Both the position numbers and the translations under genes were made by a program. A DNA stretch of 64,000 nucleotides, taken from the NCBI GenBank assembly GCA_902530635.1, contig CACABC010000001.1:66582-130581 (forward strand). Reading direction: 5' to 3'. The stretch comes from an uncultured Pelagibacteraceae bacterium (GTDB lineage: Bacteria; Pseudomonadota; Alphaproteobacteria; Pelagibacterales; Pelagibacteraceae). The notes below the pieces were generated by a model. It was not told the DNA's origin and did not search any database. It was given only the letters and a program-made list of their open reading frames with translations. Shown here one piece after another: positions 26,518-32,992 of the stretch (positions within the stretch are counted from its first letter, which is position 1; each line of letters starts with the position of its first letter).

Positions 26518-27627
26518 ATGAGAAATTATCTAGATTTTGAAAAAGAAATAAAAACATTAGAACAAGACCTTGATGGGCTGAAAAATCCATTTGATAAAGA
26601 TGGAATTTCTGAAGTTGATACGGTAAAAATTAAAAAAGTTCAAAATGAAATAAACGACAAATTAAATCTCACATATTCTAATCTAAATAGTTGGCAAAAA
26701 ACACAAGTAGCTAGACACGAGGATAGACCAAGAGCAAATTTTTACATTAATAAAATTTTTTCTGACTTTACTCTACTATCAGGAGATAGACTATTTGGTG
26801 ATGACAAATCTATAATTGCAGGTTTTGCGGTGATAGAAGGAAAATCTGTTTTAGTTCTAGGTCAAGAAAAAGGTGAGGACCTAAATTCACGGTTAGAAAG
26901 AAATTTTGGAATGATGAAACCGGAAGGTTATAGAAAATGTATACGTCTTATGAAACTTGCCGACCGTTTTAAAATTCCAGTAATTTCTTTTATAGATACA
27001 CCCGGGGCTTATCCAGGAATAGGTGCTGAACAAAGAGGACAGGCAATTGCAATTGCAAACTCTATAGAGTGTTGCATGTCTTTGAAGGTTCCTAATATAT
27101 CTATTATAATTGGAGAAGGTGGATCTGGAGGAGCAATAGCATTAGCTTCATCAAACAAAGTAATTATGTTGGAGCACTCAATATATTCAGTCATATCACC
27201 CGAAGGATGTGCATCTATTCTTTGGAGAGACCCTAGTAAATCATTGGAGGCTGCAGAGGCTATGAAATTAACAGCAAGTGAATTATTAAAAATAGGTATT
27301 ATAGATGAAGTAATTAATGAGCCGCTTGGTGGCGCGCACAGAGATGGTGAAAAAATAGCTTCTGAAATTAAAAAATCTATTATTAAAAATTTACAAGATT
27401 TTGAAAATTTATCAGGAGACGAAATATTTGAACAGAGAAAACTTAAATTCCTAAAAATAGGAAGAGACCAAGGTTTTAGGAAAGCATCTGGAAAAACAAC
27501 TTCGAGCTTGGGTTACACTGAACCTAGCTTTAATAAGATTGTTAGGCTTTATGTAAACAAAAAAAACATTTTTTTAGTATCTATGGGTGCCCTAATATTA
27601 GCCGGTATTATCTATATATTAGTGTAA
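26518..27627 (+). CDS. accA: acetyl-CoA carboxylase carboxyltransferase subunit alpha with C-terminal TM extension
   Basis: 369 aa. FIDTPGAYPG and GEGGSGGA motifs. About 50 extra C-terminal residues end in the hydrophobic helix IFLVSMGALILAGIIYILV. Confidence 0.9.
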   Translation: MRNYLDFEKEIKTLEQDLDGLKNPFDKDGISEVDTVKIKKVQNEINDKLNLTYSNLNSWQKTQVARHEDRPRANFYINKIFSDFTLLSGDRLFGDDKSIIAGFAVIEGKSVLVLGQEKGEDLNSRLERNFGMMKPEGYRKCIRLMKLADRFKIPVISFIDTPGAYPGIGAEQRGQAIAIANSIECCMSLKVPNISIIIGEGGSGGAIALASSNKVIMLEHSIYSVISPEGCASILWRDPSKSLEAAEAMKLTASELLKIGIIDEVINEPLGGAHRDGEKIASEIKKSIIKNLQDFENLSGDEIFEQRKLKFLKIGRDQGFRKASGKTTSSLGYTEPSFNKIVRLYVNKKNIFLVSMGALILAGIIYILV

Positions 27628-27770
27628 CAAATAGGTAGTTTTTTCAAATTTTTTTATAGAAACTTGATCATTCACTTGACATTTAATCTCTAAACGGTTT
27701 AAAGAGCCATATTAGTAAATTTGAACTATTTCAATTTACTGATTTAAAGTTAATAAATAAGGAAGAACAA

Positions 27771-27980
27771 ATGAGTCTAAAAGGAAAAGTAAAGTGGTTC
27801 AATGGAACTAAAGGTTATGGTTTTATTGAAAGAGAAGATAAGGAAAAGGACGTTTTCGTTCATTCTTCAGCAGTAAGAGCAGCTGGTTTAAAATATTTAA
27901 ACGAAGGTGATGAGCTTACTTTTGAAGTAGAGAACGGTGAAAAAGGACCTGCCGCGGTAAATCTACAGAAAACATCTTAA
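27771..27980 (+). CDS. cold-shock protein (CspA family)
   Basis: 69 aa. [12 protein letters not shown] (RNP1) and VFVHSS (RNP2). AAGGAAG ribosome-binding site upstream. Confidence 0.9.
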
Positions 27981-28004
27981 ATCTTATTACCAGCAAACAA
28001 ATAA

Positions 28005-28040
28005 TTGGGACAAAGACTAAGATTTAGATTTTTGTCCCAA
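28005..28040 (+). terminator. hairpin downstream of csp
   Basis: TTGGGACAAA-N16-TTTGTCCCAA, a perfect 10-bp inverted repeat 25 nt after the stop. No strong U-tract. Confidence 0.45.
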
Positions 28041-28086
28041 TAATCTAGGGTTGCTATTAATTTTTAATTTGTTAAAAGAACTACAA

Positions 28087-28161
28087 ATGTTTATTAAAAT
28101 TAACATTGTTAAGTCACACTCACACTCTCATAGAGTGCACGCTAGGCTATTGCTTAGCTAA
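28087..28161 (+). promoter_or_regulatory. candidate His-rich leader peptide ORF (MFIKINIVKSHSHSHRVHARLLLS) with overlapping hairpins
   Basis: Hand-translated ATG..TAA ORF. It has 4 His codons (CAC, CAC, CAT, CAC) within 9 codons. Hairpins CACTCT-cat-AGAGTG (28123-28137) and GCTAGG-ctattg-CTTAGC (28141-28158). Located 56 nt upstream of tRNA-His/hisS/hisZ/hisG. Confidence 0.3.
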
Positions 28162-28216
28162 ATCACTACATATTTAAAATACAAATTTATAAACAATTAA
28201 TATAAAAAGGAGTTAT

Positions 28217-28293
28217 GCAGCAGTAGCTCAGTTGGTTAGAGCACTAGTTTGTGGAACTAGGGGTCGGTGGTTCGAATCCACCCTGCTGTACCA
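28217..28293 (+). tRNA. tRNA-His (anticodon GUG), CCA encoded
   Basis: Cloverleaf read by hand: acceptor GCAGCAG/CUGCUGU, D arm GCUC-AGUUGGUUA-GAGC, anticodon arm CUAGU-UUGUGGA-ACUAG, T arm GGUGG-UUCGAAU-CCACC, then A73-CCA. Confidence 0.95.
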
Positions 28294-28297
28294 AAAA

Positions 28298-29632
28298 ATG
28301 GTAAAAGATAAAAAAACAAAACCTTCTAAGGAATTACCATTAGGTTTTGTAGATAGACAAGAAAAAGAATTATTAATCCGTGATTTTGTAATTTCTAATA
28401 TTAAAGAAGTTATGATTAAATACGGCTTTCGATATCTCGAAACACCAAGCTTCGAGTATACGGATAGTATTGGAAAATTTTTACCTGACAAGGAAAGACC
28501 TGATGCTGGAGTATTTTCTTTTAAAGATGAAAATAAATGGATGTCACTTCGTTATGATCTTACCGCTCCTTTAGCGAGATATGTTGCAAAAAACTATCTT
28601 GAAATATCAAAACCATTCAAACGTTACCAGTTAGGTTCTGTTTGGAGAAATGAGAAACCTGGACCAGGAAGATTTAGAGAATTTTTACAATTTGATGCTG
28701 ACTACGTTGGAACAAACAATTTACAAGCAGATGCTGAACTTTGTGTATTAATTTCTGAGATATTAGAAAAATGTGGTTTAGATAAAAAAGATTATACTGT
28801 AAAAATTTCTTCTAGAAAATTAACAGATAAATTATTCGAAAAGTTGAAAATTACATCGAAAGATCAAATCTCTACTGCACTCCGAGCCCTAGACAAAATT
28901 GATAGACTTGGCTGGGAGGAGGCAAAAAAACTTCTCGGAGAGGGCAGAAAAGATAAATCAGGAGATTATACAAAGGGAGCAGGACTTAGCATCGACCAGA
29001 TCAAAACAATCGAGTCTACCTTGCTAGGAAAAATTCCTGACAGTGAAGATGTCTTAGAAATTCTAAAAATATTTGAGGCTTACAATTTTAAAAATTATAA
29101 ATTTGATCCATCTGTTATAAGAGGGCTGGAATATTATACTGGACCTATTTTTGAGGTTAATTTAAATTTTCAAGTAAAAAACTCAAAAGGACAGAACATT
29201 CAATTTGGATCAATAGGTGGAGGAGGAAGATATGATAATCTTGTTAGTAACTTTGGAAATTTAGATTGTCCCGCAACCGGAATATCAATTGGTCTAGACA
29301 GACTTGTATTTGCTTTAATGCAGAAAAAAGATTTTAAAATAAAGTCTACACGACCAATTATTATATGTGTTTTTGATAAAGACAAAACTAAACAATATGT
29401 AGATATACTAAAAAAACTTAGAGCCTCGAATATCAGTTCTGAGATTTACCCAGGAGAGGGTAAGTTAAAAAAACAAATGGAATATGCGAATAAGATAGGT
29501 TCGCCGGCTGTTATTTTGTACGGGGATAACGAAATAAAATCAGGAAAAGCAACTTTAAAAAATTTAGAAAGCGGGAATGAGAGTTCAATTAAAATTGAGG
29601 AAATAGCAAATGAAATCAAAAAATTACTCTGA
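28298..29632 (+). CDS. hisS: histidine--tRNA ligase
   Basis: Class II aaRS motifs (FRYD-like LRYDLTAP, WRNEKPGPGRFREF, GGGGRYD). The ORF-track start at 28232 lies inside the tRNA. The first ATG after the tRNA is 28298 (MVKDKK...). Confidence 0.9.
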   Translation: MVKDKKTKPSKELPLGFVDRQEKELLIRDFVISNIKEVMIKYGFRYLETPSFEYTDSIGKFLPDKERPDAGVFSFKDENKWMSLRYDLTAPLARYVAKNYLEISKPFKRYQLGSVWRNEKPGPGRFREFLQFDADYVGTNNLQADAELCVLISEILEKCGLDKKDYTVKISSRKLTDKLFEKLKITSKDQISTALRALDKIDRLGWEEAKKLLGEGRKDKSGDYTKGAGLSIDQIKTIESTLLGKIPDSEDVLEILKIFEAYNFKNYKFDPSVIRGLEYYTGPIFEVNLNFQVKNSKGQNIQFGSIGGGGRYDNLVSNFGNLDCPATGISIGLDRLVFALMQKKDFKIKSTRPIIICVFDKDKTKQYVDILKKLRASNISSEIYPGEGKLKKQMEYANKIGSPAVILYGDNEIKSGKATLKNLESGNESSIKIEEIANEIKKLL

Positions 29633-30659
29633 AAATATAATAAAGGTATTTAAGAAAGACGGTTTTGTTTTATCAGAACCAGATGTGCTTTTAGATTCAG
29701 ATTATATTATTGAAAGATCCGGTGAAAATTTTAGGAAAATAATGCTTACTTTTGAGGATGATACTGGAAAGAGTATGTGTTTAAGGCCAGACTTGACAGT
29801 TGCTTCGTGCATTAAATATTTAAAAGATAATTCTAAAGCAAATTCAAAGATATATTATTCAGGTCAAGCTTATAGGAGGTCAAAAAGTTTAAACAAAGTT
29901 ATTAATTATCAACTAGGTTTGGAGATCTTTAACTCTAAAAATAAATCCATCGATGATTTAAAAGTTTTAAAAACAATAACCAGCTCAATTAATAAGGTAA
30001 AAATTAAAAATATATTAATTAAAGTTGGCGATGTAAGTTTATTCAAACAGTTAATCGAGTCTTTAAAAATACCAGAAAGATGGAGAATGAGATTAAAAAG
30101 ACACTTTTGGCGACCAAAATACTTTGAAGATTTACTTAATAGGCTCGAAACAAATTCTGATGTTGATCCTTCAACAGTTGAACTAGATAAGAAAAAGTTT
30201 TTTGAAATGAAGAATATTGATCAGAACAAAGAAGTTGCAAATAGAAAAGTTTCAGAGATCATATCGAGATTCGATAGAAAAATTAAAGACCCGAGATCAT
30301 TTAAAGAAAATAAAAAAACAGTAAAAATTATTAAAGATTTTTTAAAAATTAGTTGTCCGTTAGATAAATTAGAAAAAACATTAGATAATTTTATTAATAA
30401 AAATCAATTAAATAAAAGTGTTTTTAAAGATATATCAAGTTTGAAAAATTTATCTAAGTTAAATTCTAAAATTATTTTTTCTACTAATTTTGGTAGAGAT
30501 ATTGAATACTATTCAGGAGTGGTATTTGAGATATACAACTCTTCGAAAAAAGAGATAGCAAGAGGTGGAAGATATGATGGTTTATTAAAGAGTCTTGGAT
30601 CTAAAAAAAATATTTCAGCAGTAGGTGCTGCAATTAATTTAAATAATTTAGAGATATGA
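29610..30659 (+). CDS. hisZ: ATP phosphoribosyltransferase regulatory subunit (HisRS paralogue)
   Basis: 349 aa HisRS-like catalytic core without an anticodon-binding domain (LRPDLT, GGRYD). Directly precedes short-form hisG. Confidence 0.85.
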   Translation: MKSKNYSENIIKVFKKDGFVLSEPDVLLDSDYIIERSGENFRKIMLTFEDDTGKSMCLRPDLTVASCIKYLKDNSKANSKIYYSGQAYRRSKSLNKVINYQLGLEIFNSKNKSIDDLKVLKTITSSINKVKIKNILIKVGDVSLFKQLIESLKIPERWRMRLKRHFWRPKYFEDLLNRLETNSDVDPSTVELDKKKFFEMKNIDQNKEVANRKVSEIISRFDRKIKDPRSFKENKKTVKIIKDFLKISCPLDKLEKTLDNFINKNQLNKSVFKDISSLKNLSKLNSKIIFSTNFGRDIEYYSGVVFEIYNSSKKEIARGGRYDGLLKSLGSKKNISAVGAAINLNNLEI

Positions 30660-31333
30660 AAAATTTAATTACTATAGGGTTACCAAGCAAAGGCAGATTG
30701 AAAGATGGCTCAATAAACTTTCTTGTAAGAAATAATTTAAAACTAACCTCAAATGGAGGAGAGCGAAATTATTTTGCTGAGGTGAAAAATTTTCCTAATA
30801 TAAAAATCATTTATTTACATGCAAAAGAAATCATTCAAAGAATTGGTGATGGTACCCTTGATATAGGGATTTCAGGTTTAGATCTTTTAAATGAGTCAGC
30901 CACAAACCTTAAACAAAAAATCGAAGTTAAAAAAAAATTAGATTTTGGTTCAGCCAATGTTGTTGTTGCTATTCCTAATGATTGGATTGATGTGCAAACT
31001 GTTGCTGATTTGGAGGAGGTATCTTTCGATTTTAGAGATAAAAAAAATACCAGATTGAGAGTTGCAACTAAGTACCCAAATCTAACAAATAATTTTTTAG
31101 TTTCAAAAGGTGTTACTCAATACAAACTAGTTGCAAGCCTTGGTGCAACAGAAACTTATCCTTTTATTGGTTCCTCAGAAATTATTACTGATATCACTTC
31201 GACTGGAAAAACCTTAAGAGATAATAACCTTAGAATTTTGAAAGACGGTTTAATTTTAAAGTCACAAGCTTGTGTGTTGTACTCAAAAAAAAAGGCTGCA
31301 AAATTGCAGCCTTTTTTAAATTCTTTGAAGTGA
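30656..31333 (+). CDS. hisG: ATP phosphoribosyltransferase, short form
   Basis: 225 aa. LPSKGRL start and DITSTGKTL motif. Lacks the C-terminal regulatory domain, consistent with a HisZ partner. Confidence 0.9.
   Translation: MKNLITIGLPSKGRLKDGSINFLVRNNLKLTSNGGERNYFAEVKNFPNIKIIYLHAKEIIQRIGDGTLDIGISGLDLLNESATNLKQKIEVKKKLDFGSANVVVAIPNDWIDVQTVADLEEVSFDFRDKKNTRLRVATKYPNLTNNFLVSKGVTQYKLVASLGATETYPFIGSSEIITDITSTGKTLRDNNLRILKDGLILKSQACVLYSKKKAAKLQPFLNSLK
31285..31317. terminator. bidirectional rho-independent terminator (A9-GGCTGC-aaaatt-GCAGCC-T6)
   Basis: Perfect GC-rich stem flanked by A9 and T6. It lies 23-55 nt downstream of the groEL stop on the minus strand and inside the last 16 codons of hisG on the plus strand. 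Confidence 0.6.
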
Positions 31334-31339
31334 TTGGGA

Positions 31340-32992
<1,653 letters not shown>

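What the first reader, a model, noticed from the sequence alone, without database searches (positions are those of the whole stretch)
28217..28300. tRNA-His is embedded as the 5' leader of its own synthetase mRNA (4-nt spacer)
The encoded CCA end of tRNA-His is at 28293 and the hisS ATG is at 28298 (CCA-AAAA-ATG). No promoter or Shine-Dalgarno sequence can fit, so tRNA-His and hisS-hisZ-hisG must be co-transcribed. 3' maturation of the tRNA would leave a virtually leaderless hisS message. Before processing, the tRNA acceptor stem sits directly against the start codon. Production of the tRNA and translation of its cognate synthetase are therefore physically coupled. This is an unusual arrangement, since aaRS genes and their tRNAs are normally unlinked. 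It is a potential autoregulatory device: HisRS binding to the precursor tRNA could occlude its own start codon.
Basis: partly seen in the sequence, partly recalled or inferred. Interest (0 to 1): 0.65.

Follow-up and report, generated by a model that had tools for sequence, protein, structure and literature searches.

The report
tRNA-His fused upstream of hisS
In this SAR11 (Pelagibacter-type) genome the histidine tRNA gene ends four bases before the start codon of its own charging enzyme; this tight junction is kept in nearly every relative sampled and sits behind a short histidine-rich leader reading frame, so the tRNA, its synthetase and the first histidine-synthesis enzyme probably form one histidine-sensing unit.

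Summary
tRNA-His(GTG) is 28217..28293, the spacer AAAA is 28294..28297, and the hisS ATG is at 28298. hisZ and hisG overlap downstream.

It is not a chance rearrangement. Of 146 tRNA-His genes in fetched Pelagibacterales loci, 144 have the hisS ATG 3-6 nt after CCA. These loci carry 12 different acceptor stems with compensatory changes.

Co-transcription is strongly implied but not shown. A conserved -10-like TAnnATAAA lies 10-16 nt upstream of the tRNA, so the tRNA is effectively the 5' UTR of hisS.

- Lacking a Shine-Dalgarno sequence and having a 4-nt spacer is normal here (SD core in 13 of 65 crude gene models).
- Eight unpaired nucleotides, not zero, separate the acceptor helix from the AUG.

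The HisRS-occlusion model is plausible but untested.

A new element was found upstream: a 24-codon ORF (28087..28161, MFIKINIVKSHSHSHRVHARLLLS) with two hairpins. It is intact in 83 of 83 distinct relatives and is 13% His. A sister lineage (HisRS 49% identical) has the tRNA apart from hisS, and a His-rich ORF (MLIIKHHHSHI) directly upstream of hisS. This is a more conventional candidate sensor. How it couples to the tRNA is unresolved.

Verdict: new variant of known kinds.

The parts
28005..28040 (+). Hairpin after the csp gene (TTGGGACAAA ... TTTGTCCCAA). It is the likely end of the upstream cold-shock transcription unit.
   Evidence: Read. Conserved in the alignment. It was not called by the terminator scan, because there is no T-run after the stem.
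28051..28078 (+). Candidate promoter P1 for the leader ORF: TTGCTA (28051-56), 16 nt, then TGT-TAAAAG (28070-78). The -10 ends 8 nt before the leader ATG, so the leader ORF would be leaderless or nearly so.
   Evidence: Sequence. A T[GC]nTA.... motif lies 6-8 nt before the leader ATG in the main sequence groups (alignment). This is inference only, and it falls below the threshold of the promoter scan.
28087..28161 (+). Leader ORF of 24 codons, MFIKINIVKSHSHSHRVHARLLLS*. His codons are at 28117-19, 28123-25, 28129-31 and 28138-40.
   Evidence: An ATG-to-stop ORF is intact in 83 of 83 distinct relatives (19-26 codons; one of 40). The other two frames are open in 2 and 0 of 83. His makes up 13% of residues, against 1.6% in six window proteins, and is clustered at codons -14 to -7 from the stop. 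The ORF is also present in most metagenome lineages.
28123..28137 (+). Hairpin 1 (CACTCT-CAT-AGAGTG), overlapping the His codons.
   Evidence: 95.7% of cells paired. Two pairs show changes on both sides: U-A to C-G in 14 sequences, which turns Val into Met in the peptide. In another group a different hairpin, GCAAAA/TTTTGC, occupies the same place.
28141..28158 (+). Hairpin 2 (GCTAGGC-TATT-GCTTAGC), at the 3' end of the leader ORF.
   Evidence: 97-100% of cells paired in 79 and 46 sequences. All changes are one-sided and preserve wobble pairing on the + strand. It appears in the MFE fold. In some lineages the stop codon falls in its loop (..HAG*), so the RNA stem is what is conserved, not the peptide tail.
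28162..28216 (+). Conserved AT-rich spacer carrying candidate promoter P2: -10-like TAATAT/TATAAA (28198-28206) and a purine box AGGAG (28208-28212) just 5' of the tRNA.
   Evidence: A [TG]ATAA[AT] hexamer ends 10-13 nt before tRNA +1 in 95 of 101 distinct upstream sequences. The context is TTA[AG][TG]ATAAA. A purine box lies within -10..-1 in 94 of 101 (alignment).
28217..28293 (+). tRNA-His gene with anticodon GTG (28251-53) and an encoded CCA. It is the G-1-less alphaproteobacterial type: G1-U72, C2-G71, A73, 9-nt D loop, and T at position -1.
   Evidence: Across relatives there are 12 acceptor-stem variants with compensatory changes, all keeping G1-U72. The type definition comes from PMC3064791 and PMC3937112.
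28294..28297 (+). 4-nt spacer AAAA between CCA and the hisS ATG.
   Evidence: In relatives the spacer is always 3-6 nt and A-rich: AAAA 75, AAATA 14, AACA 13, AAAAA 9, and others.
28298..29632 (+). hisS, histidyl-tRNA synthetase, 444 aa.
   Evidence: TIGR00442 at 364.6 bits, above its cut-off. Orthologues are 444 aa with the same start.
29610..30659 (+). hisZ, the regulatory subunit of ATP phosphoribosyltransferase. It overlaps hisS by 23 nt.
   Evidence: Best match is NF008953 at 290 bits, below that model's own cut-off. The paralogue pattern and the hisS-hisZ-hisG synteny support the call.
30656..31333 (+). hisG, short-form ATP phosphoribosyltransferase. It overlaps hisZ by 4 nt (ATGA).
   Evidence: TIGR00070 at 174 bits, above its cut-off.

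Best explanation
tRNA-His is the promoter-proximal gene of a compact, conserved operon in a streamlined SAR11 genome.

Transcription. It most likely starts a few nucleotides upstream of the tRNA, at a conserved TAnnATAAA -10 element. It then runs through tRNA-His, the 4-nt spacer, hisS, hisZ and hisG. The tRNA is therefore literally the 5' UTR of the hisS mRNA. This step is inferred.

Processing. RNase P frees the tRNA 5' end. The 3' end is freed either by an endonucleolytic cut in the A-rich stretch at or after CCA, or by 3'-to-5' decay of the mRNA back to the tRNA, followed by trimming. This follows from general knowledge of tRNAs that encode CCA.

Translation. hisS starts at an A-rich, unstructured AUG without a Shine-Dalgarno sequence, as most genes in this genome do. 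Translation is either from the precursor, with 8 unpaired nucleotides between the acceptor helix and the AUG, or from the short-leader product of processing. This step is inferred.

Sensing. Just upstream lies a nearly leaderless 24-codon ORF with 3-4 His codons, followed by two hairpins. It is most likely a ribosome-stalling sensor of His-tRNA-His supply that modulates read-through into the unit. All four products (tRNA-His, HisRS, HisZ, HisG) raise His-tRNA-His. This step is inferred, and the way the sensor couples to the tRNA is unresolved.
For: Anatomy.

Conservation of the junction: 144 of 146 tRNA-His genes across Pelagibacterales have the hisS ATG 3-6 nt after CCA. These include lineages with HisRS only about 55-61% identical, carrying 12 acceptor-stem variants. 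The upstream neighbours differ between lineages (csp, or maf plus tRNA-Phe), so the block itself is what is kept.

Co-transcription:
- There is no room for signals in 3-6 nt.
- No terminator-like site was found.
- The -10-like element sits at a fixed 10-13 nt from tRNA +1 in 95 of 101 distinct sequences, with a purine box at the expected start site in 94 of 101.

SD-less, tightly packed genes are the norm in this window. Accessibility of the hisS start region is ordinary.

Other tRNAs in the same genomes are not fused to their downstream gene: tRNA-Phe and tRNA-Lys lie 72-123 nt from csp. The tight junction is therefore specific rather than a genome-wide rule.

Leader ORF:
- Intact in 83 of 83 distinct sequences, while the other frames are closed.
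- His is enriched 8-fold.
- The N-terminal half is variable, with indels in multiples of three.
- The hairpins are kept by compensatory or wobble changes.

Sister lineage at 49% HisRS identity: the order is tRNA-Phe, tRNA-His, opposite-strand gene(s), then hisS. A His-rich ORF (MLIIKHHHSHI / MFIIKHHCLHI) and a hairpin lie directly upstream of hisS-hisZ-hisG.

Precedent: leaderless short ORFs act as amino-acid-sensing attenuators without classical terminators in mycobacteria (bioRxiv 10.1101/834739). Endonucleolytic cuts a few nucleotides after tRNAs that encode CCA are documented (PMC3848588).
Against: - There are no RNA data. The transcription start, the precursor and the processed 5' end are all inferred.
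- No hairpin with a U-tract (a classical terminator) follows the leader ORF.
- No alternative antiterminator pairing was found. RNAalifold on diverse sequences gave no consensus structure.
- The best promoter candidate (P2) lies between the leader ORF and the tRNA. The leader could therefore only modulate an extra upstream transcript, or it may act in some other way.
- His codons are few (2-4) and not consecutive.
- Some metagenome contigs (L104, L106, L109) lack the His codons, hairpin 2 and P2.
- The 49% lineage shows that hisS works without the fusion.
- A weak sigma-70-like match inside the tRNA (TTGTGG, 17 nt, TCGAAT) cannot be ruled out as an internal promoter.
Confidence: 0.7

Rival explanations
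1. HisRS binds the tRNA moiety of the unprocessed tRNA-hisS transcript and sterically blocks the hisS start codon. Free synthetase thus represses its own translation. This is the logic of the E. coli thrS operator, but with a real tRNA in place of a mimic. It could act together with the best explanation.
For: - The AUG is only 8 nt from the acceptor helix.
- Spacer length is held at 3-6 nt in 144 of 146 loci.
- HisRS of this G-1-less type recognises mainly the anticodon and U72, so a 3' extension need not prevent binding (PMC3064791).
- This tRNA carries those elements.
Against: - Nothing tested here shows binding or repression.
- Spacers of 0-5 nt are the genome norm, so the tight spacing needs no special explanation.
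- A separate candidate sensor, the His leader ORF, already exists upstream.
- The 49% lineage keeps hisS-hisZ-hisG and the leader ORF but not the fusion.
- Mature tRNA-His should greatly outnumber the precursor as a ligand. This last point is inference.
Confidence: 0.12
2. The adjacency is only a by-product of genome streamlining. In this view hisS is expressed from its own promoter inside the tRNA gene or from some other independent signal, tRNA and mRNA production are not functionally coupled, and the conserved junction merely reflects a lack of rearrangement.
For: - Intergenic DNA is minimal throughout the window.
- A weak promoter-like match lies inside the tRNA (TTGTGG, 17 nt, TCGAAT; 7 of 12 positions, read).
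- One other tight tRNA-ORF junction exists: a tRNA-Leu 8 nt before a 571-aa ORF in L132.
Against: - The internal match consists of universally conserved tRNA bases (anticodon loop and T loop), and it scores below the threshold of the promoter scan.
- The junction survives where the flanks have rearranged.
- A conserved -10-like element lies upstream of the tRNA rather than upstream of hisS.
- Where the tRNA and hisS are apart, hisS has acquired or kept its own leader and SD (AAGGAAG) in a 236-nt intergenic region.
Confidence: 0.1
3. Split ribosome-binding site. The conserved AGGA(G) box 1-4 nt 5' of the tRNA serves as the Shine-Dalgarno sequence of hisS. The closed acceptor stem brings it next to the AUG, as the hairpin does in phage T4 gene 38 and gene 25 mRNAs. 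RNase P cleavage would then switch hisS translation off.
For: - A purine box lies within -10..-1 of the tRNA in 94 of 101 distinct sequences, in a genome where only about 20% of genes have an SD core.
- No ORF starts at the box.
Against: - The effective spacing (1-4 nt, plus the width of the helix, plus 8 nt) is longer than optimal.
- The box is absent in the 61% clade (L081, L083), which keeps the fusion.
- The box sits exactly where the transcription start of the conserved -10 element is expected, which explains it more simply.
Confidence: 0.05
4. The upstream short ORF is not a histidine sensor. It would then be a small protein of unrelated function, or only the coding shadow of a conserved RNA or DNA element, such as a terminator or insulator between csp and the tRNA promoter.
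For: - Hairpin 2 is nearly invariant in sequence and has no double compensatory changes.
- No U-tract terminator or antiterminator was found.
- There are only 2-4 scattered His codons.
- P2 lies downstream of the ORF.
Against: - The frame is open in 83 of 83 sequences despite a highly variable first half with 3n indels.
- His codons persist in five different sequence contexts (SHSHSHRVH, KHHFAH, HRHHFH, THRYHPHARH, KHHHSH).
- The peptide tail after the last His is not conserved, and the stop codon moves.
- The same kind of ORF sits directly before hisS in the lineage without the fusion.
Confidence: 0.2

Closest known systems
Heterogeneous tRNA-protein operons of E. coli (thrU-tyrU-glyT-thrT-tufB; the tRNA genes always come first; PMC1183518; tufB details from my own knowledge)
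   Same: tRNA gene(s) lie promoter-proximal and are co-transcribed with a downstream protein gene of the translation apparatus. The tRNA is cut out of the mRNA precursor.
   Different: Here the tRNA is cognate to the enzyme encoded downstream. The spacer is 3-6 nt rather than about 100 nt with an SD, and a His-codon leader ORF lies upstream.
pylT-pylS of the pyl operon (Methanosarcina, Desulfitobacterium; from my own knowledge, not checked here)
   Same: The gene for a tRNA lies immediately upstream of, and in the same operon as, the gene for its own aminoacyl-tRNA synthetase.
   Different: That is a mobile accessory cassette for a 22nd amino acid. Here the pair is the essential canonical one. 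The junction length is fixed at 3-6 nt and is linked to amino-acid biosynthesis genes and a leader ORF.
Mitochondrial tRNA punctuation
   Same: A tRNA abuts an ORF with almost no spacer, so excising the tRNA would create an mRNA with little or no 5' leader.
   Different: It is not genome-wide here: tRNA-Phe and tRNA-Lys sit 72-123 nt before csp. CCA is encoded. The nucleases and the fate of the processed mRNA are unknown.
E. coli thrS operator (autoregulation of a synthetase through a tRNA-like 5' UTR; from my own knowledge)
   Same: A tRNA-shaped RNA sits immediately 5' of the synthetase's start codon. This makes competition between the synthetase and the ribosome conceivable.
   Different: This is a real, functional tRNA gene, not a mimic. 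No binding or repression has been shown.
Histidine leader-peptide attenuators (hisL, Rfam RF00514 His_leader) and leaderless Cys short-ORF attenuators of mycobacteria (bioRxiv 10.1101/834739)
   Same: A short ORF enriched in codons for the pathway's amino acid, followed by hairpins, lies upstream of his genes. Like the mycobacterial short ORFs, it appears to be (nearly) leaderless.
   Different: - There is no Rfam match.
- His codons are few and interspersed.
- There is no U-tract terminator.
- A tRNA gene and a promoter-like element lie between the ORF and the first protein gene.
- The controlled genes would include the sensor's own tRNA.

Membership tests
tRNA-His, G-1-less alphaproteobacterial type | Cloverleaf tRNA with anticodon GUG | tested here: met
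   ARAGORN. Rfam RF00005 at 71.9 bits against a gathering score of 29. Compensatory changes appear in 12 acceptor variants.
tRNA-His, G-1-less alphaproteobacterial type | A73 discriminator, G1-U72 pair, 9-nt D loop and no encoded G at position -1 (PMC3064791) | tested here: met
   Sequence: G1/T72, A73, D loop AGTTGGTTA, and T at position -1 (28216).
Histidyl-tRNA synthetase (TIGR00442) | Full-length match above the curated cut-off | tested here: met
   364.6 bits against a cut-off of 286.75. Residues 14-432 match model positions 3-405.
Heterogeneous tRNA-mRNA operon (tufB type) | tRNA first, same strand, with no terminator or promoter room before the protein gene | tested here: met
   4-nt spacer. 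No terminator-like site in 27600..28800. A conserved -10-like element lies upstream of the tRNA.
Heterogeneous tRNA-mRNA operon (tufB type) | A precursor RNA that contains both the tRNA and the mRNA | not testable with these tools
His leader-peptide attenuator (hisL / RF00514) | Short translated ORF enriched in His codons upstream of his genes | tested here: met
   The ORF is intact in 83 of 83 sequences, and His is 13% against 1.6%. Translation itself has not been shown.
His leader-peptide attenuator (hisL / RF00514) | Match to the Rfam covariance model | tested here: not met
   At E <= 1 only the tRNA model matched credibly in 27600..28800; the one other listed hit was a sub-threshold chance match on the opposite strand (Plastid-ycf2, 19.2 bits against a gathering score of 65.7, E = 0.59). 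Nothing matched the L084 leader either.
His leader-peptide attenuator (hisL / RF00514) | Mutually exclusive antiterminator and terminator hairpins, the latter followed by a U-tract | tested here: not met
   Two conserved hairpins exist. There is no U-tract, and no alternative pairing was found.
T-box leader | Match to the Rfam T-box model upstream of the aaRS gene | tested here: not met
   No match at E <= 1.
thrS-operator-type autoregulation | tRNA-like structure next to the start codon of the synthetase mRNA | tested here: met
   A genuine tRNA ends 4 nt before the AUG, with 8 unpaired nucleotides between the acceptor helix and the AUG.
thrS-operator-type autoregulation | The synthetase binds the leader and competes with the 30S subunit | not testable with these tools
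   This needs binding and toeprint assays.
tRNA punctuation (mitochondrial type) | tRNAs abut ORFs genome-wide and define mRNA ends | tested here: not met
   tRNA-Phe and tRNA-Lys lie 72-123 nt from the next gene in the same loci. Only tRNA-His, and one tRNA-Leu, are tightly joined to an ORF.

The most novel reading that the evidence does not exclude
The unit is a self-contained His-tRNA-His homeostat. A nearly leaderless His-codon ORF senses the charged form of the very tRNA whose gene lies directly downstream. Ribosome stalling on it raises transcription into tRNA-His, HisRS and HisZ/HisG together. The tRNA then acts as the structured 5' UTR of hisS, so that RNase P and 3' processing (and possibly HisRS binding) set how much synthetase is made per tRNA. 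A tRNA gene placed under leader-peptide control that reads its own aminoacylation state has not, to my knowledge, been described.
Probability: 0.25. Interest if true: 0.75.

Novelty: new variant of a known kind. Interest (0 to 1): 0.55.

Why it matters
SAR11 is among the most abundant bacterial groups in the ocean and is known for having very few regulators. This is a concrete, deeply conserved case in which three things are packed into about 250 bases ahead of hisS-hisZ-hisG: a tRNA, its synthetase start and a probable amino-acid sensor.

If confirmed, it would show how a streamlined cell couples tRNA supply, charging capacity and amino-acid synthesis from a single promoter. It would also give a bacterial example of a real tRNA acting as the 5' UTR of an mRNA, and a bacterial parallel to tRNA-punctuated, leaderless mitochondrial messages.

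There is a practical consequence too. Automatic gene callers often extend hisS into the tRNA, giving protein models of 454-494 aa instead of 444/478 aa. These start codons should be corrected.

Tried and rejected
- Downstream start for hisS: rejected. The HMM match begins at residue 14, and there is no alternative start codon before codon 39.
- Known RNA families: no credible match other than tRNA at E <= 1 (the other listed hits, Plastid-ycf2 and YrlA, are far below their gathering scores), so this is not RF00514 and not a T-box.
- Classical attenuator: no hairpin with a U-tract. Group-wise pair counts were used instead.
- Special accessibility of the hisS start: not seen. P(unpaired) is 0.53 for -8..-1 and 0.68 for AUG..+12, against 0.50 and 0.53 for 30 other genes. 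The small ACCA/UGGU stem in the MFE fold is not conserved.
- TTGCTT in hairpin 2 as a -35 box: the spacing is inconsistent between groups, so it was rejected.
- An ORF starting at ATG 28215 (MQQ*) behind the AGGAG box: absent in other groups, so it was rejected.
- Wider alphaproteobacteria: Labrys, a 1.28-Mb genome and GC-rich marine contigs all keep hisS-hisZ-hisG. They have no tRNA within 3-4 kb and no His-rich leader ORF upstream.
- Literature: Wang et al. 2007 (PMC1855720) is said in PMC3937112 to discuss co-transfer of tRNA-His and HisRS into SAR11, and may already mention the adjacency. It is not held in the library. Meyer et al. 2009 on Pelagibacter RNAs mentions neither hisS, histidine nor a leader peptide.
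- Taxonomic name for the 49% lineage: not obtained.
Full report
**1. What is there**

The window is AT-rich SAR11 (Pelagibacteraceae) DNA. The HisRS it encodes is 74-94% identical to those of 80 GTDB species representatives, all labelled Pelagibacteraceae or Pelagibacterales.

- ARAGORN finds a single tRNA in 64 kb: tRNA-His(GTG), 28217..28293, + strand. Rfam's tRNA model scores 71.9 bits.
- The sequence reads ...CTGCTGT-A-CCA(28291-93)-AAAA(28294-97)-ATG(28298).
- The ORF 28298..29632 is HisRS (TIGR00442, 364.6 bits; model position 3 aligns to residue 14).
- hisZ (29610..30659) and hisG (30656..31333) follow, with overlaps of 23 nt and 4 nt.
- No in-frame ATG, GTG or TTG exists between codon 1 and codon 39, so the ATG at 28298 is the start. 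The only upstream in-frame start is inside the tRNA.

**2. The tRNA is a functional, G-1-less tRNA-His**

It has G1-U72, C2-G71, A73, a 9-nt D loop and T at position -1. These are the features described for the alphaproteobacterial group that lost G-1. In that group HisRS reads mainly the anticodon and U72 (PMC3064791), and most SAR11 strains share these features (PMC3937112). Among relatives I found 12 different acceptor stems. All have compensatory changes and all keep G1-U72.

**3. The junction is conserved, not accidental**

- All 80 genome loci have the hisS ATG 3-5 nt after CCA.
- A clade whose HisRS is 61% identical has the order murA-DUF2948-hisD-infA-maf-tRNAPhe-...-tRNAHis-hisS-hisZ-hisG, with the junction CCA-AAACA-ATG.
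- A metagenome scan seeded with a divergent N-terminal fragment added 80 loci. These include lineages with 74-75-nt tRNA-His variants, and they show the same picture.
- In total, 142 of 146 tRNA-His genes have the hisS ATG 3-6 nt downstream (4 nt: 97; 5 nt: 36; 3 nt: 6; 6 nt: 3). L037 (poly-A frameshift) and L142 show the same junction. The spacer is always A-rich.

The only exceptions are two loci of a lineage whose HisRS is 49% identical. There tRNA-Phe and tRNA-His are 5 nt apart, one or two opposite-strand genes (MFS transporter, GST-like) follow, and then come hisS-hisZ-hisG-groEL(-). More distant alphaproteobacteria (Labrys, a 1.28-Mb genome, GC-rich marine contigs) keep hisS-hisZ-hisG but have no tRNA nearby.

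In the same SAR11 loci, tRNA-Phe and tRNA-Lys sit 72-123 nt before csp. Tight fusion is therefore not a general property of tRNA genes in these genomes.

**4. How special are 'no SD' and '4 nt'?**

Not very. In a crude gene model of the window only 13 of 65 genes have a GGAG/GAGG/AGGA core at -18..-4, and the median same-strand spacing is about 0-1 nt. The predicted accessibility of the hisS start is ordinary.

What is special is that the upstream 'gene' is a folded, processed RNA. Because A73, CCA and AAAA are unpaired, the acceptor helix ends 8 nt before the AUG. That is roughly where an SD-anti-SD helix sits on the 30S subunit, not against the start codon.

**5. Where does transcription start?**

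The most conserved element of the whole intergenic region is TTA[AG][TG]ATAAA. A [TG]ATAA[AT] hexamer ends 10-13 nt before tRNA +1 in 95 of 101 distinct upstream sequences. A purine box (AGGAG, AGGA) lies within -10..-1 in 94 of 101.

I read this as a -10 element (TAnnAT/TATAAA) with the start site in the purine box. This is candidate promoter P2, at 28198-28212 in the window. The primary transcript would then begin a few nucleotides before the tRNA, which makes the tRNA the 5' UTR of hisS. No terminator-like site occurs in 27600..28800.

This is inference from conservation. A weak promoter-like match inside the tRNA, made of universally conserved tRNA bases, cannot be excluded.

**6.

*The ORF.* 28087..28161 encodes MFIKINIVKSHSHSHRVHARLLLS*.
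- An ATG-to-stop ORF in this frame is intact in 83 of 83 distinct relatives (19-26 codons, one of 40).
- The other two frames are open in only 2 and 0 of 83.
- His is 13% of residues against 1.6% in window proteins, and is clustered 7-14 codons before the stop.
- The first half is highly variable, with indels in multiples of three.
- The His cluster persists in different contexts: SHSHSHRVH, KHHFAH, HRHHFH, THRYHPHARH.

*The hairpins.* Two hairpins overlap the 3' half of the ORF.
- Hairpin 1 (28123-28137) shows U-A to C-G changes on both sides that alter the peptide. In one group a different stem occupies the same place.
- Hairpin 2 (28141-28158) is 97-100% paired, with only wobble-preserving changes on the + strand.
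- In some lineages the stop falls in the loop of hairpin 2, so it is the stem that is conserved, not the peptide tail.

*Possible promoter.* A T[GC]nTA.... motif 6-8 nt before the ATG suggests a promoter (P1) that yields a nearly leaderless ORF.

*Sister lineage.* The 49% lineage has MLIIKHHHSHI* or MFIIKHHCLHI* plus a hairpin directly upstream of hisS, which there has an SD.

*What argues against a classical attenuator.*
- No Rfam family matches the leader region.
- There is no U-tract terminator and no detectable antiterminator.
- P2 lies between the ORF and the tRNA.

I therefore regard the ORF as a probable ribosome-stalling sensor of His-tRNA-His whose coupling to the downstream unit is unresolved. 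Possible couplings are read-through from P1 added to P2, Rho-dependent termination on the C-rich His-codon tract, or weak termination at hairpin 2. Leaderless short-ORF attenuators without classical terminators are documented in mycobacteria (bioRxiv 10.1101/834739).

**7. Most likely mechanism**

*Shown:*
- The anatomy.
- Conservation of the tRNA-hisS junction, of the -10-like element, and of the leader ORF and hairpins.

*Inferred:*
- Co-transcription of tRNA-His, hisS, hisZ and hisG.
- RNase P cleavage at 28216/28217.
- 3' maturation either by a cut in the A-rich stretch after CCA, as seen for tRNAs that encode CCA elsewhere (PMC3848588), or by 3'-to-5' decay back to the tRNA.
- SD-independent initiation at the A-rich AUG, either on the precursor or on a short-leader product.

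One transcription event thus yields one tRNA-His and one hisSZG message. This is a simple way to keep tRNA, synthetase and the first biosynthetic enzyme in proportion in a cell with few regulators.

It has no direct support, and it is no longer needed to explain regulation.

**8. Comparison with known systems**

The locus combines several known themes:
- tRNA-first mixed operons (tufB type; PMC1183518).
- Cognate tRNA-synthetase linkage (pylT-pylS; from my own knowledge).
- tRNA punctuation.
- tRNA-like synthetase operators (thrS).
- Amino-acid leader ORFs.

It is a member of none of the regulatory families by their defining tests: there is no RF00514 or T-box match, no terminator/antiterminator pair, and no genome-wide punctuation. 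The adjacency itself is visible in public genomes and may have been noted by Wang et al. 2007, which I could not read. I found no description of the leader ORF or of the tRNA acting as a 5' UTR.

**9. Verdict**

This is a new variant of known kinds. Interest is moderate (0.55). It would be higher if the leader ORF proves to control a tRNA gene by sensing that tRNA's own charged form.

Noticed in passing
L104, L106, L108, L109 (compared with L105, L110), upstream of tRNA-His: Four closely related metagenome contigs from one assembly series (LUM*) carry different deletions. Each removes the His codons, hairpin 2 and the -10-like element. In L108 the deletion also removes the 5' acceptor strand of tRNA-His. 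These could be real population variants or cloning/assembly artefacts. If real, they show the leader is dispensable.
   Followed up: partly
Protein models P0003, P0005, P0012, P0087 and P0121 (454-494 aa), compared with window 28232..28297: Public gene calls often start hisS inside the tRNA gene. For example, the N-terminus MEPDVGGSSPPSCTKTM is a translation of the tRNA 3' half. This inflates HisRS by 10-22 residues (16 in the 61% clade) and hides the junction.
   Followed up: yes
L132, minus strand, tRNA-Leu (plus-strand coordinate about 1852): A tRNA-Leu gene is followed 8 nt later by a 571-aa ORF (MNLKEFNSLTDLFFY...). This is a second tight tRNA-ORF junction in a SAR11-like contig. The ORF was not identified.
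   Followed up: no
L149 182..255: A divergent lineage has a 74-nt tRNA-His with discriminator G73 (..AGGACGT-G-CCA) instead of A73. It is still followed by hisS after a 3-nt spacer (CAA), and still preceded by a His-containing leader ORF (MIKNVTISVSTKRHHIFHGSFTLSF).
   Followed up: no
window 31333..31340: hisG (+) and groEL (-) converge with only 6 nt between their stop codons. This leaves no room for terminators, so the transcripts must overlap or end inside the opposite gene. The hisG-groEL neighbourhood is kept even in the 49% lineage (L084, L085).
   Followed up: no
window 26518..27627: The accA ORF is 369 aa, but the AccA models end near residue 316. The extra C-terminal tail ends in a hydrophobic stretch (..NIFLVSMGALILAGIIYILV) that looks like a membrane anchor.
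   Followed up: no
L084 3850..3960 and L085 3845..3950: In the lineage without the fusion, the His leader ORF upstream of hisS is followed by a 9-10-bp hairpin. In L084, a long-range stem (AAAUAGGG / CCCUAUUU) followed by a U-run encloses the whole ORF. This long-range stem is not conserved in L085.
   Followed up: partly
Loci L013-L036, L089-L168 and others, about 0.5-2 kb upstream of tRNA-His: A csp (cold-shock) gene lies about 72-123 nt downstream of tRNA-Phe or tRNA-Lys in many lineages. In the window, csp (27771..27980) is present but has no tRNA upstream of it. The region between maf and the leader ORF is therefore a rearrangement hot spot, while the leader-tRNAHis-hisS block stays intact.
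   Followed up: partly
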